Source: Lobosporangium transversale
Lineage: Eukaryota
NCBI RefSeq assembly: GCF_002105155.1
Contig: NW_019028979.1
Location: 930,001 to 994,000, forward strand
DNA: 64,000 bases
Direction of reading: 5' to 3'
Shown here: in pieces, positions 9,130-24,385 of the stretch
How the letters are laid out: each line of letters begins with the position of its first letter
Numbering within the stretch: the stretch's first letter is position 1
The notes under the pieces: generated by a model
Told to the model about the DNA's origin: nothing
Databases searched by the model: none
The model's input: the letters and a program-made list of their open reading frames with translations, nothing else
Position numbers and translations under genes: made by a program

Positions 9130-9611
9130 ATAAATCAGGATGGGGTATTATTCCCCCTTGATATTGTTATTCGATTCGATAGCGACCATCATCAATACCC
9201 GCAGAATCATAGGCAACTTTTATTTCCTTCCCCTTGCCTGGTTCAAACCTCTCAGACCTTTATTCTTCTTCTTGACCTCTGGTCCGAGCGTCTGATTCTT
9301 TTACGCTCAAAGGTTACAAGGAACAATAACCGAGTCAAATTTGTCTTGTTGTTTAATCACAATGCGTTGCCCCCCCCTCCATACTTTCTACCCTAAGAGA
9401 GAGATGGTCATTAATAGACTTTATTACTGCTGTCATAGGTACTCTCCTAGCTATTTTTTTTTTTTTTTTTTAAACTAAAAATGAACCTCATGAGTATGCT
9501 CTGATAAATACCTTGGGGCTGCAAAAGTACAGTTTAAAAGATCTTTTCCGATTGAAGACGGTGGGATGGTTTCTGGGATATTCAAGAGATCCAATTTTTA
9601 ATATTGTTCAT
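9130..9611 (-). pseudogene. Degenerate, internally deleted F-box/LRR remnant
   Basis: ATG at 9611 begins MNNIK, then a frameshifted LDLLNIPETI..KDLLNC, matching the N-termini of the array. About 9270-9370 gives QRIVIKQ..KLTRL, like the C-terminal QRIAFRQLGKLTRL of paralogs. Boundaries are approximate. Confidence 0.6.
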
Positions 9612-9666
9612 GTTGTGAAAGAGACGATGATGGAGTGTGATAACAGATCTGTTGTCATTTCGTCAA

Positions 9667-11235
9667 CTATATAATACAAACTTGTCTTCTTATGATTCGC
9701 CTTTCCCTATAATGTTGAATACCGTGTAGACGGAATATGCTGGCGATTAATTCGACAATATCCGGATCGTTATTCAGCACACCATCAAGATGTTTGATTC
9801 TAGTCCAGTTCTTTACAATCCACCTCGCTTCTTCAGGCCCTATTGCTTGGCATATATCATATGAGAAACTCAATGTTGTCAGGCTCTTCAGATTGGCCAG
9901 CTCATTGAGCCCAGCCCTTAGCCTTAGATCCAACGTTCGTGTGCTGTAGTGATCTGCCAAAGCAAGCTCTTGCAGTCCAGTCAGCTCCCCTAGTCGTTTA
10001 AACACTAGCCGTTGGTTCATCATCCCTTCCTCAGATTCTGGATCAAGATCCATATTGAAATAGAGCCTTAGATTCTCAATTCTCGAACACACCCACTGTG
10101 CCCCGTGTACGATCTCCGTCACTGTGATTTTGGACGCTTGTAGAGACCGCAGACGTGGGCAATTAGACAAGATTGCTTGAGCAATACCGTCTGTTTCGTC
10201 GTAGAACGGCGCAGCACCCAGTACCTCAATCGTATTACAAAGTCTGTCTGTCCCCGTCATCCTATCTCCATCTTTACAATCACCCGGTTGCCTTCCTCTA
10301 TTCCTATCCACCAATAGTTCTTGAAGAGCAAGCGGCCCAAAATAGGAGTGCGAGACCTCAAGGGTCCTGACTCGAGACATCTCTCTGAGGACAGTCGCCA
10401 GTTCTTTATCGCTTATTGAGACATTTAGAGTTAAATCCCTCAGATGTGGAAAGATCCACGGACATTGCAATAGCGCTACTCTGTATATAGTATGATGCAC
10501 ATGATATAGGAAATACAGTTTCTCCAAGCTTGGACACTTCCGGACTAGCATCCCCCAGGAATGCAATATTGAGCTTGGTAAAGAATGACTATCAACACGA
10601 TCATAAAGAGTCAAGTAGCGAAGCTGCGGCAGAGCAAAGTCGCTGGCTTCAGCCTGTATATAATCCGGGAACTGAGAGATAGACCCAGTATCCAAGGCCA
10701 GTACCCGAAGCTTTGTGCAGAGTTGGAAGAATAGATCAGTCTCATCGGGCCTGAATCTCATGCGACCGATTACTATGGAACTAATATTAGGACACTCTAA
10801 AAGCGTTCTCCAAAGCTCTTGACCTGAAAGCAGCTCCTCAACCTCATCTCGTACCTCAATTCTAACGTCCCGAATTGTCGAACTGTGGGCCTTGATCAAG
10901 CCACTCATCTCTGTCAGGAACGAGGAGATGCGCATGGCTGGCAATTCTGCACTGTTTATAGTGTGAAGGAGTTCACATCCCTGCAATGACATATATTCGC
11001 GGGGAGGGTATCCTTCAAATATGAGTCTTTTAATATACTTTTTGTGGTCCTGTAGCACCTTGCCTGTTGGTAAGCCGGCTAGTCCTTCCCAAACATCGAT
11101 GGTTTCCCACACGCGCTTTACCAAGACATGATGGAAAGTCTTGGAGACCCGAAGGCAGGTCACAAGGTCTCTACCGTGAAGGAACTGCCCCAAGATTTCG
11201 ATTATTTCAGGCGTGTCCATTGGATGGTGCTGCAT
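9667..11235 (-). CDS. F-box/LRR (RNI-like) protein, intronless, 522 aa (divergent array member)
   Basis: N-terminal F-box-like segment (PEIIEILGQFLHGRDLVTCLRVSKTFHHVLVKRVW), repeated LxxLxL units, and family motifs AILSNCPRL, TLDLRLRAGLNELANLK and EARWIVKNW. Confidence 0.85.
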   Translation of the reverse strand: MQHHPMDTPEIIEILGQFLHGRDLVTCLRVSKTFHHVLVKRVWETIDVWEGLAGLPTGKVLQDHKKYIKRLIFEGYPPREYMSLQGCELLHTINSAELPAMRISSFLTEMSGLIKAHSSTIRDVRIEVRDEVEELLSGQELWRTLLECPNISSIVIGRMRFRPDETDLFFQLCTKLRVLALDTGSISQFPDYIQAEASDFALPQLRYLTLYDRVDSHSLPSSILHSWGMLVRKCPSLEKLYFLYHVHHTIYRVALLQCPWIFPHLRDLTLNVSISDKELATVLREMSRVRTLEVSHSYFGPLALQELLVDRNRGRQPGDCKDGDRMTGTDRLCNTIEVLGAAPFYDETDGIAQAILSNCPRLRSLQASKITVTEIVHGAQWVCSRIENLRLYFNMDLDPESEEGMMNQRLVFKRLGELTGLQELALADHYSTRTLDLRLRAGLNELANLKSLTTLSFSYDICQAIGPEEARWIVKNWTRIKHLDGVLNNDPDIVELIASIFRLHGIQHYRERRIIRRQVCII

Positions 11236-11329
11236 GTCGCGATGGAATTATGATGAATCAAATTGTATGATTCGAAAGCATGTTTGTGTAGGAAGATGTC
11301 ACAAAGGTGACAATGGTTTTTTCAACAAC

Positions 11330-11360
<31 letters not shown>

Positions 11361-11531
11361 CTTTCAAGGGTTTAGGGAACGCATAAAAAATACTGCTTAT
11401 AACTAACGCCGCGTATGGTGCTGATGACCCCCAGCTCTCTGATTGCATCAATTTCTCAGGAACTTGGTATCGCCAATGTGTCCAGTAAGATCAATGGCTG
11501 AATTTTTTTGACTGAACTTGAGAACTTTTGT

Positions 11532-22258: not shown

Positions 22259-23819
22259 CTATCTACAAATGGCTATATTGTGCGATTTAAGCAAGTCAGA
22301 CACCAAAGTGTCTACAATTCCATTTTCCTTCAGTTCACCAATCAAGAATTTGATGCTTGGCCAATTATTTGCAATCCATGTCGCATCCTCAAGGTATATT
22401 CGCTGGTAACCATCATCTCTAAAGCATAACCTATGCAGCTTCTTCAGGCTGGCTAGTTCATCCAGACCCGCTCTTAATCTCAAGTCCAAAGTCCGTTTTC
22501 CATTACCACCCAAGCTCCACCCTGTTAAATCAAGGGAACGTAGTTGAGTCAGTTTTCCTAGTTTCTTAAAGACAATGCGCGCCTTCTCCATGCCTTCGGC
22601 AGTCTCCTGGTCAACGTCTGCCTCAAGATTGATAGACAATTCAGTCAGCCTAATGCTAACCCATTCCACACCATTAACAATCTCTGTCACCGTGATTTTG
22701 GACCCCATCAGTTGCTTCAGGCACGGGCAATTTGATAAAATAGTTTGGACAATGCCACCCATCGCAACACTTCGTATGTCGAACACCAATGTCTCAATTG
22801 TTTCGCAGAGTTTCTGTAGCCTAATCTCTCATACCATGTGTCCATTACCCAACACCGCTCGTTTGTCAGCAAGCAATTCCTGCAGGGAAAGCTGGTCAAA
22901 CCCACAAAACGGAACATTGAGCCGCCTTAGCCGAGTCATCTGACTGAGAAGTGCCGCCATATCCCTGTCTTTTATTCTCATGTGGGGAAAAGAAAGATCT
23001 GATAGGTTTGTTAGAGCCCAAGGATGTCGAAGGAATGCTGCCCTGTAGAAATCATCGTGTTTTGGTTGCTTAGATCGCCTATATTCGATGATGTCGACAA
23101 ATTTCAGTGCGCACAATCCTAGACATTTTCTCACCAACAGGCCGAGGCAATACGAGGGTGTATAAGGATGTGGAGGGTTGAGTATTTCGACGCCCGTAAT
23201 ATATAGTGTGCGTATATTTGTGAGAAGACAATTGCTGAGCTCATCATTCAGTATACTGATAGGTAGCTGGTGTATGGCTACACCATCCATGCCCAAGTGC
23301 CTAAGTTTCTTGCAGACTTGTAGAAATAAGTCAACTTCGTCATTTATACGTGTGTGAGATATTTCTAGACGCTCGAGGTTGGTGCATCTTAGTATTGTCT
23401 CCCAGAGCCCCGGTGAAGATTGAGTGTTATCCAAGCAAAGCCTAGTGATAGTGGAGTTGTGGGTTTTGATGAGGTTCAAAAAATCTATTGGTATGGGCAA
23501 CCTCCATGTTAATCTTACATATTTGATGTCGTGGAGGCGGTCACATCCCTGCAATGATCCATACTCCTCTGGAAAGTTGATTTCAAATACAATCCTTTCA
23601 ATATGTTTCTTGTTGTTCTGCAGTGCATCGCCAACAGGATATCTGTCAAATTCGACAGGTGTTGTGACAACGATATCTTTCCATATGCACCTGATAAGGG
23701 CTCTATGAAAAGGCCTTGGAAACGCAGATACAGTTTAGAAGGTCTTTTCGATCGAGGAAGCCACCAACAAGCGAGATGATTTCTGGGAGATCCAATAGAT
23801 TCAATTTAATATTGTTCAT
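22259..23819 (-). pseudogene. Full-length F-box/LRR pseudogene (+1 frameshift and a nonsense codon)
   Basis: ATG at 23819 reads MNNIKLNLLDLPEIISLVGGFLDRKDLLNCICVSKAF. An extra T near 23708 creates TAG. An in-frame TGA at 22829-22831 sits where copies A/B have Trp (MVWK), and the same frame continues to 22259. Confidence 0.85.
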
Positions 23820-24047
23820 GTGAAGAGATGATGTTAATGAGTATCATGAATGTGCAGAGGTATGTCAATAGACAAAACTTTGCACGTGTGTTAAATCAAT
23901 TGCTTTAGTAGCTGCTTCCCCTTTTGATGTTGTCTATGCTCTAAATGATAACGTCCATGTTATATTGGTTGCTTCGGCATCTCTAACGTCCATCCCAAAT
24001 GACCCTGCACACTTGGTTGAACCATGTCATGCTCTTACTTCATATCC

Positions 24048-24104
24048 GGCAATGATATGAAGATTAAAAGAACATCTGGCAATGAGAGGAAGATTAAAAG
24101 AACA
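24048..24104. repeat. 30-bp imperfect tandem duplication
   Basis: ggcaatgatatgaagattaaaagaacatct followed by ggcaatgagaggaagattaaaagaaca. Confidence 0.8.
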
Positions 24105-24199
24105 TACACAAGTGCCTCTCCCATCATCTTAATCTTTCTGCTCAATCGTCTCTACATCACTCAGCTCCCCATGGAATACAGGGGGACATCTCCCGGCCA

Positions 24200-24385
24200 A
24201 TATACTAGGGCAATGAGCACTTCGTCAGTAGGATGTTTTTTTTTCGAAAAGGCGAGATCATGATAGAGTAGAAAGAAGTATCTCGGAGACAGGGATACAG
24301 TTTAAAAGGTCTTTTGATAAAGGAAGCCATCAACAAGCGAGATGACTTCTGGAACTTCCAAGGGATTCAACTCAATGCTGCTCGT
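24200..24385 (-). pseudogene. F-box N-terminal remnant (start codon mutated to ACG)
   Basis: From 24385 the reverse strand reads TSSIELNPLEVPEVISLVDGFL, then shifts frame. It is homologous to MNNLKVNPLELPEIISPVGDFL. Confidence 0.7.

What the first reader, a model, noticed from the sequence alone, without database searches (positions are those of the whole stretch)
9130..24385. 15-kb birth-and-death array of ~10 co-oriented intronless F-box/LRR loci between housekeeping genes
Seen in sequence: three intact genes, two full-length pseudogenes, one degraded pseudogene and four fragments lie head-to-tail on the minus strand at every stage of decay. None has introns, whereas the conserved enzyme and transporter genes in the window have 2-10 each. 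I recognised no transposase. Inference: this is rapid local turnover by unequal crossing-over, the pattern known from plant NLR and nematode F-box clusters.
Basis: partly seen in the sequence, partly recalled or inferred. Interest (0 to 1): 0.75.

Follow-up and report, generated by a model that had tools for sequence, protein, structure and literature searches.

The report
Fungal birth-and-death F-box/LRR gene cluster
This soil fungus carries a row of about ten intact, broken and fragmentary copies of one gene for a predicted protein-tagging adaptor whose predicted target-binding face changes fastest, which likely makes it a fungal counterpart of the fast-turnover F-box gene clusters already known from plants and nematode worms.

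Summary
Ten minus-strand loci lie between a cyclin and a permease gene: three intact, two full-length broken, one degraded and four fragments, plus two fainter remnants. All are intronless. Profiles, an AlphaFold model (pLDDT 84) and fold searches give an F-box plus about 16 LRRs, like TIR1, COI1 and FBXL proteins. The closest named relatives are Lobosporangium transversale proteins: at least 41 more on 15 contigs, all in one species-only clade, within a family spread across Mortierellaceae. A relative lacks the array upstream of its permease orthologue.

New here: neighbours B and C are mosaics, sharing a 552-bp near-identical tract, and their amino-acid differences cluster on the LRR strands and following loops (42/150 versus 23/356 residues; dN/dS 2.2 versus 0.5, only marginally above 1).

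Most duplications are old (dS about 0.8 or saturated). Copies elsewhere are near-identical in a second assembly.

Verdict: a real, apparently undescribed fungal case of a known pattern. Skp1 binding and the targets are untested.

The parts
5539..8660 (+). Left flank: cyclin gene (PCL-like label recalled), at least 3 introns
   Evidence: Pfam Cyclin_N E 5e-7 on exon 7434-7589; splice sites read
9172..9370 (-). Faint 3' remnant of the family
   Evidence: nhmmer E 0.0014; weak
9481..9630 (-). 5' fragment (F-box start, ATG at about 9612), frameshifted
   Evidence: nhmmer E 3e-12
9667..11235 (-). Locus A: intact intronless F-box/LRR gene, 522 aa, divergent subclade (37-39% identity to B/C)
   Evidence: nearest relative P0046 lies on another contig
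12296..12638 (-). 3' fragment, degraded
   Evidence: nhmmer E 5e-59
12938..14500 (-). Locus B: intact intronless F-box/LRR gene, 520 aa
13460..14011 (-). Homogenised tract in B: 552 bp with 1 synonymous difference from C 16243-16794
   Evidence: longest identical run 425 nt; maximum 142 in 5000 permutations
12653..14566 (-). Duplicated unit (gene plus 5' leader and about 285 bp of 3' flank), 92% identical to 15445-17369
   Evidence: blastn, alignment
14998..15095 (.). Short non-coding sequence repeated elsewhere in the genome; nature unknown
   Evidence: many loose-ended contigs and summed depth 2585 versus about 120 for unique contigs in X1; no Rfam match
15164..15263 (-). 5' fragment (part of the F-box), with stops
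   Evidence: nhmmer E 1e-11, hmmsearch E 0.001
15733..17301 (-). Locus C: intact intronless F-box/LRR gene, 522 aa (540 aa from the upstream ATG at 17355, as publicly annotated)
   Evidence: covered with 0 differences by three contigs of run X5, whose RNA status is a guess
17639..19183 (-). Locus D: full-length pseudogene, two frameshifts (near 19050 and 18875), last 409 codons open
   Evidence: breaks matched by contigs of X1, X4 and X5
19761..20867 (-). Locus G: degraded pseudogene, many stops and frameshifts, 5' part missing
22259..23819 (-). Locus EF: full-length pseudogene, one frameshift near 23716 and an in-frame TGA at 22831-22829
   Evidence: not checked against reads
24278..24394 (-). 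5' fragment (F-box start, start codon lost)
   Evidence: nhmmer E 2e-20
24697..24815 (-).
   Evidence: nhmmer E 1e-6
25622..28180 (+). Right flank: amino-acid permease gene, 5 exons
   Evidence: Pfam AA_permease_2; same exon layout in L001

Best explanation
The stretch is a tandem birth-and-death cluster of a species-expanded F-box/LRR gene family whose products are predicted SCF ubiquitin-ligase substrate adaptors, and whose predicted target-binding face likely diversifies to keep up with changing, probably foreign or selfish, target proteins. Step 1 (shown): whole genes are copied as DNA with their flanks, both next door and to other contigs. Step 2 (shown for B/C): neighbours exchange sequence, which makes mosaics. 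Step 3 (pattern shown, cause inferred): the F-box and LRR framework stay under purifying selection, while the beta-strands and the loops after them change fastest. Step 4 (shown): copies lose their frame and erode to fragments. Step 5 (inferred from the FBXL family, untested): the F-box docks on Skp1-Cullin1 and the LRR horseshoe presents a bound protein for ubiquitylation. Step 6 (inferred by analogy with nematode F-box genes): the targets are non-self proteins, such as those of endobacteria, viruses or selfish elements.
For: Architecture: F-box-like in 24 of 29 family members and LRR_At5g56370 in 18 of 29 at E<=0.01. Best PDB sequence hits to the profile are KDM2B, KDM2A, TIR1, a designed LRR and FBXL5. 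The model of C has pLDDT 84.2 and pTM 0.83, three helices at 12-47 and 16 strand-helix repeats. Foldseek ranks TIR1 and COI1 first (E 3.5e-10 to 1.4e-8). VIA-align gives SKP1-bound FBXL17 Z 20.1, rmsd 5.2, 352 aligned over residues 5-487, tied with bacterial LRR proteins. Expansion: 31 of 35 hits of C are L. transversale, then a drop to E>=3.5e-7. At least 41 annotated paralogues on 15 contigs, 14 of them on a contig of the same length as the window's. A 41-row clade is all L. transversale (SH-aLRT 93; inner 39 rows 99; quick tree, names). Exchange: 552-bp tract with one difference; of 23 gap-free informative sites among B, C, P0001 and P0002, 12 in a row pair B with P0002 and C with P0001, then 6 in a row pair B with C (5 runs, p=0.0013). 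Face variation: B/C differ at 42 of 150 strand+5 residues against 23 of 356 elsewhere (Fisher 4e-10); dN/dS 2.2 against 0.51 (N x S Fisher p=0.008); 4 of 448 circular shifts of the mask do as well. Family entropy is 2.17 bits there, 1.24 elsewhere and 1.17 in the F-box. Older pairs give dN/dS 0.22-0.46 in the F-box and 0.23-0.36 in the framework. Synteny: 8.2 kb upstream of the permease orthologue in L001 holds no family match and no cyclin match. Run X5 (RNA status guessed) has contigs matching C with no differences, a weak hint of transcription.
Against: dN/dS above 1 rests on one gene pair. Whole-gene B/C dN/dS is 1.04 (bootstrap 0.67-1.69). The four mask widths tried gave 1.78, 2.2, 1.74 and 1.52, with one-sided p 0.24, 0.03, 0.06 and 0.11. 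Clustered multi-base changes, loop indels and imported patches can inflate dN. In older pairs the face stays below 1 (0.55-0.75), as relaxed constraint on exposed loops would also give. The F-box of A, B and C scores below Pfam's cut-off (15.7-17.7 bits against 24.3). Seven family members are identical or nearly so in a second assembly, so no balanced polymorphism is seen; the control gene is 99.3% identical, so the two isolates are close. No result identifies a target.
Confidence: 0.55

Rival explanations
1. Genomic drift: the genes are ordinary F-box/LRR adaptors duplicated by chance. Most copies are under relaxed selection and on their way to loss, and the exposed loops vary only because they are less constrained.
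For: Seven of ten loci are broken. Whole-gene B/C dN/dS is about 1. Face dN/dS is below 1 in older pairs. The abstract of PMC3030570 describes lineage-specific plant F-box genes with relaxed selection, little expression and many pseudogenes.
Against: The framework stayed at dN/dS 0.23-0.36 over dS about 0.8 even in D and EF, so they were functional for most of their history. The B/C face is enriched for nonsynonymous change relative to the rest (p=0.008), and 4 of 16 purely synonymous codons fall in a mask covering a third of the sites.
Confidence: 0.25
2. Internal genetic conflict: the adaptors are antidotes or suppressors that would degrade toxins of selfish elements or incompatibility factors encoded in the fungus's own genome.
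For: Rapidly evolving F-box antidotes that degrade toxins through SCF are described in Caenorhabditis tropicalis (abstract of PMC12680543). This would give the same face-focused change.
Against: No candidate partner gene lies in the array: 0 of 37 inter-locus ORFs have a meaningful Pfam hit, and the one 138-codon ORF beside B has no longer relative among 575 candidates (weak evidence).
Confidence: 0.1
3. Lineage-specific regulation of the fungus's own proteins (development, sporangia, nutrient response), as proposed for the F-box expansion in mushroom-forming fungi.
For: Passages of PMC10282164 report F-box expansion in Agaricomycetes as indirect evidence of developmental regulation and call the family fast-evolving.
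Against: Host substrates change slowly, which fits poorly with mosaic genes, frequent loss and a species-only clade.
Confidence: 0.08
4. The copies are spread by retroposition or as cargo of a transposon rather than by recombination.
For: The genes lack introns, copies are dispersed over 15 contigs, and a short high-copy repeat lies upstream of B.
Against: B and C share flanks, with weak similarity continuing further upstream, and no poly(A) tail follows the 3' boundary. All loci are co-oriented. No transposase was found. An ancient retroposed founder is not excluded.
Confidence: 0.05

Closest known systems
FBXL / F-box-LRR SCF adaptors (TIR1, COI1, FBXL2, FBXL5, FBXL17, SKP2)
   Same: N-terminal three-helix F-box followed by an LRR horseshoe; top sequence and fold matches.
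   Different: Those are conserved, mostly single-copy regulators (recalled). These share only 12-14% identity with them, are intronless, multicopy and species-expanded, and lack a known substrate.
Expanded F-box families of Caenorhabditis (Thomas 2006, as cited in PMC8120010, section 15 read)
   Same: Conserved F-box with a variable substrate-binding domain; large paralogue family; immune role proposed but indirect.
   Different: The nematode substrate-binding domains are mostly FTH/FBA rather than LRR (recalled), and they show large variation between isolates. Here the seven comparable members are near-identical between two assemblies.
Lineage-specific plant F-box (FBX) genes (PMC3030570, abstract)
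   Same: Birth/death with many pseudogenes, species-specific expansion, relaxed selection; Pfam hits are to plant F-box-associated LRR models.
   Different: Fungal lineage; independent expansion inferred from the tree and taxon range.
F-box expansion in Agaricomycetes (PMC10282164, passages) and F-box/LRR gene births in Glomeromycotina (10.1101/2022.10.19.511543, one passage)
   Same: Fungal expansions of fast-evolving F-box genes are already in print.
   Different: The passages seen give no tandem cluster anatomy, gene conversion or site-level selection, and do not concern Mortierellaceae.
Plant NLR clusters and fungal NLRs
   Same: Tandem paralogues, sequence exchange and variation focused on the LRR strand face (plant pattern recalled).
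   Different: No nucleotide-binding domain here. Fungal NLRs lack LRRs (PMC5658179, figure legend read), so these are not NLRs.

Membership tests
F-box/LRR (FBXL) proteins | N-terminal F-box motif | tested here: met
   F-box-like in 24 of 29 members, best E 1.2e-7; profile aligns to the KDM2B/KDM2A F-box; three helices at 12-47. A, B and C singly are below Pfam's cut-off.
F-box/LRR (FBXL) proteins | C-terminal LRR solenoid | tested here: met
   16 strand-helix repeats at pLDDT 84; TIR1/COI1 best by Foldseek; FBXL17 Z 20.1, rmsd 5.2, 352 aligned.
F-box/LRR (FBXL) proteins | Binds Skp1 and assembles into SCF | not tested
   No Skp1 sequence was in hand; needs a co-immunoprecipitation or two-hybrid test.
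F-box/LRR (FBXL) proteins | Recruits a substrate for ubiquitylation | not testable with these tools
   No substrate known.
Birth-and-death multigene family | Intact genes interspersed with pseudogenes of different ages | tested here: met
   3 intact of 10 loci; D's breaks matched by contigs.
Birth-and-death multigene family | Lineage-specific clade, no one-to-one orthologues in relatives | tested here: met
   41 of 41 rows of the clade are L. transversale (quick tree, support 93); no array beside the permease in L001 (one relative).
Arms-race recognition family (NLR-like or nematode F-box-like) | Positive selection on the binding surface | tested here: inconclusive
   Face dN/dS 2.2 in one pair, p 0.03-0.24 by mask width; below 1 in older pairs.
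Arms-race recognition family (NLR-like or nematode F-box-like) | High allelic or presence/absence variation between isolates | tested here: inconclusive
   7 of 7 comparable members outside the window are near-identical in a second assembly; the isolates look close and the window's loci were not comparable.
NLR (STAND) receptors | Central NACHT or NB-ARC domain | tested here: not met
   F-box and LRR account for the whole 522 aa; no such Pfam hit in 29 of 29 members.
Transposon-borne or retroposed genes | Transposase, terminal repeats or poly(A) tail at unit ends | tested here: not met
   0 of 37 ORFs; B/C boundaries lack a poly(A) tail at the 3' end. Decayed non-autonomous elements are not excluded.

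The most novel reading that the evidence does not exclude
Mortierellaceae have built an LRR-based intracellular non-self recognition repertoire out of F-box adaptors. Dozens of paralogues per genome, reshuffled by gene conversion and diversified on the LRR face, would tag proteins of endobacteria, viruses or selfish elements for destruction, filling the LRR-sensor role that fungal NLRs lack.
Probability: 0.25. Interest if true: 0.78.

Novelty: new member of a known kind. Interest (0 to 1): 0.45.

Why it matters
Fungal NLRs lack LRR sensors (PMC5658179), and a 2023 review of fungal immunity never mentions F-box proteins or ubiquitin (PMC10197012, 0 occurrences of each). Mortierellaceae host endobacteria (reference titles seen). 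A large, recombining F-box/LRR repertoire with a variable binding face is therefore a concrete candidate for how these fungi police foreign proteins. The B/C pair is a natural experiment: the same F-box and middle repeats with different end loops. If drift explains it, the cluster is still a clean fungal example of F-box birth-and-death, of modest interest.

Tried and rejected
No whole genome was held, so there is no genome-wide count, and no DNA was available for paralogues outside the window.

Reads were laid only on 12100-19540 (4 of the 7 listed runs), so the breaks in EF and G and any transcript of A are unchecked. No RNA holder was listed as such; X5 is only guessed to be RNA. X5 has no cover at 12100-12348, 12598-13095 (B's 3' end) and 15337-15585, which the DNA runs cover. 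This fits an RNA library but proves nothing about B.

Run X7 showed almost only C>T and G>A changes (119 of 128). I considered RIP-like mutation and rejected it: its loose ends lack C or G altogether, as base-converted (bisulfite-type) reads do.

I first read P0001/P0002 as divergent alleles from another strain and rejected that: they lie on a contig of the same length as C's own annotated protein, and runs X1 and X4 hold both versions.

The first quartet test included gap columns and the N-terminal extension; it was redone on 23 gap-free sites up to residue 515. The careful tree did not finish; the quick tree is used.

Searches that found nothing: viral contigs, no relative among 70 pattern matches; Rfam, only two sub-threshold matches on T-rich DNA; the ORF at 14913-14500, no homologue; earlier scan notes, nothing. 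No complex was predicted, as no Skp1 was in hand.

Literature: 'Lobosporangium'+'F-box' gave 0 papers. Searches listed none describing this family. Thomas 2006 was not held. Subscription papers and all supplements, where Pfam expansion tables might list it, were not seen.
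Full report
1. Observation. The window is fungal DNA with T-rich introns. Between a cyclin gene (5539-8660) and an amino-acid permease gene (25622-28180) lie ten homologous loci, all on the minus strand. Three are intact single frames: A (11235-9667), B (14500-12938) and C (17301-15733). Two are full length but broken: D (19183-17639, two frameshifts) and EF (23819-22259, one frameshift and one TGA). G (20867-19761) is heavily degraded. Four are fragments, and two fainter 3' remnants also appear. The DNA profile finds nothing on the reversed window better than E 0.42. 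D's breaks are not assembly errors, because contigs of two DNA runs match 17388-19540 without a difference. EF and G were not checked this way. No transposase was found in 37 of 37 inter-locus ORFs.

2. What the genes encode. Singly, A, B and C give sub-threshold F-box scores, but 24 of 29 aligned family members hit F-box-like and 18 of 29 an F-box-associated LRR model. The family profile finds KDM2B, KDM2A, TIR1 and FBXL5 among its five best PDB sequences. The model of C (pLDDT 84.2, pTM 0.83) has three helices at 12-47 and 16 strand-helix repeats. Foldseek ranks TIR1 and COI1 first. VIA-align places SKP1-bound FBXL17 in a three-way tie at the top (Z 20.1, rmsd 5.2, 352 residues), and it is the only one of the three whose alignment covers the F-box region. 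The ESM Atlas returns F-box clusters, mostly Mucoromycota, at 0.96-0.98. There is no nucleotide-binding domain, so these are not NLRs.

3. Family. Of 35 hits of C, 31 are Lobosporangium transversale proteins at 36-80% identity; the other four have E>=3.5e-7. Across I count at least 41 annotated paralogues on 15 contigs. Fourteen are on a contig of the same length (1,854,208 bp) as the one holding C's annotated protein. A profile search of 50%-identity representatives gives 418 clusters at E<=1e-30, 1950 at 1e-10 and 4299 at 1e-3. All 17 of the 150 listed that I looked up are Mortierellaceae: 7 L. transversale and 10 labelled Modicella, Mortierella, Dissophora, Benniella or Entomortierella. The weaker thousands were not checked and may include unrelated F-box/LRR proteins. 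In a quick ML tree of 71 rows, 41 L. transversale rows form one clade (support 93; inner 39 rows 99), sister to other Mortierellaceae. The window's loci are not one clade: A groups with a protein on another contig, and B and C group with P0001 and P0002 outside the window. P0020 and P0042 are identical apart from one gap and lie on different contigs. Copies therefore move between loci as well as next door. One metagenome contig (L001) holds the permease orthologue with the same five exons; its 8.2 kb upstream has no family match and no cyclin match and instead holds what I read as a ribosomal protein L34 gene (label recalled).

4. Age and exchange. B and C lie in a 1.94-kb unit 92% identical with flanks, dS 0.076. 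B/C, D and EF differ at dS about 0.8, and A is saturated. Within B/C, 552 bp differ at one synonymous site; the longest identical run is 425 nt against a maximum of 142 in 5000 permutations. Among B, C, P0001 and P0002, 12 consecutive informative sites (residues 43-162) pair B with P0002 and C with P0001, and the next 6 (238-318) pair B with C (23 gap-free sites, 5 runs, p=0.0013). The genes are mosaics, as expected from gene conversion or unequal crossing-over; these data cannot separate the two.

5. Where the proteins vary. Using strands from the model, B and C differ at 42 of 150 residues in strand-plus-five against 23 of 356 elsewhere (Fisher 4e-10), with dN/dS 2.2 against 0.51. Four of 448 shifted masks do as well. 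Across 29 paralogues, entropy is 2.17 bits there, 1.24 elsewhere and 1.17 in the F-box. This is the face that binds ligands in LRR proteins (established knowledge). The case for positive selection is only suggestive: whole-gene dN/dS is 1.04 (0.67-1.69), the four mask widths gave p 0.03-0.24, and older pairs give 0.55-0.75 on the face against 0.23-0.36 in the framework. Seven paralogues outside the window that could be compared with a second assembly are near-identical: four have the same sequence in both, one is 100%, one 99.5%, and one 96% overall with differences that appear confined to a different C-terminal model. A control gene is 99.3% identical.

6. Expression. Three contigs of run X5 match C (15683-17122) and two match D, all with no differences. 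The run's RNA status is a guess, so this is a weak hint.

7. Mechanism. Shown: DNA-level duplication, dispersal, sequence exchange, purifying selection on the F-box and framework, face-focused variation and decay. Inferred from the FBXL family: Skp1 docking and substrate ubiquitylation. Inferred by analogy: non-self targets. I put this reading at 0.55, drift at 0.25, internal conflict at 0.10, host regulation at 0.08 and transposon- or retro-driven spread at 0.05.

8. What is known. The pattern is established for nematode F-box genes (PMC8120010, abstract and section 15 read, citing Thomas 2006, which was not held) and plant F-box genes (PMC3030570, abstract). F-box antidotes are described in C. 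tropicalis (PMC12680543, abstract). Fungal F-box expansions are noted for Agaricomycetes (PMC10282164, two passages) and Glomeromycotina (10.1101/2022.10.19.511543, one passage). Fungal NLRs lack LRRs (PMC5658179, passages), and a fungal-immunity review has no F-box mention (PMC10197012, term counts and passages). PMC7482071 and PMC10079182 (passages) did not bear on this family; the former mentions F-box and LRR effectors of endofungal bacteria. Seven searches found no description of the Mortierellaceae family; subscription papers and supplements were not seen. UniRef already labels the paralogues 'F-box domain-containing protein'.

9. Verdict. The finding is real and largely as described. 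It is a new member of a known kind, with added evidence of mosaicism and face-focused variation. Interest 0.45; 0.78 if the immune-repertoire reading (probability 0.25) proves true.

Noticed in passing
window 14998-15095 and 14606-14831: Short non-coding sequences upstream of B that are repeated elsewhere in the genome (many loose-ended contigs, summed depth up to 20 times unique in X1). 14606-14831 also ends a 1.4-kb contig of X5. No Rfam or protein match; could be a family promoter module or a small non-autonomous element.
   Followed up: partly
window 17355-17302 and 14539-14501: C has an in-frame upstream ATG adding 18 residues, shared with P0001 and P0002. B keeps part of the sequence but not the ATG. 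About 20 C/T-rich bases before the main ATG are similar in six loci.
   Followed up: partly
window 23819-23680 versus B/C: The F-box of EF is closer to B/C (dS 0.37) than the rest of the gene is (dS about 0.8), hinting at another conversion event; only 45 codons.
   Followed up: no
window 9170-24830: The array has fewer long poly(A)/poly(T) runs (0.57 per kb) than the flanking intron-rich DNA (2.1 per kb).
   Followed up: no
L001:10862-11919 (-) and about 6720-7043 (+): A TnpB/Fanzor-like ORF with a Cas12f1-like TNB domain (E 3.5e-5), cut by the contig end, lies just downstream of the permease orthologue. A possible decayed copy lies upstream (read by eye).
   Followed up: partly
P0038, P0040, P0043 (outside the window): Public models of 819-952 aa hold two family units in a row; they are probably neighbouring tandem copies merged by annotation, which suggests more arrays like this one.
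   Followed up: no
window 28831-29247 and 45518-46039: Two small apparently single-exon genes: a secreted Ser/Thr-rich protein with a hydrophobic tail (GPI-like label inferred) and an Ecl1-family protein.
   Followed up: partly
run X7 laid on 12100-19540: Base-converted reads (almost only C>T and G>A) mimic RIP; such a library could be used to ask whether the cluster is methylated.
   Followed up: no
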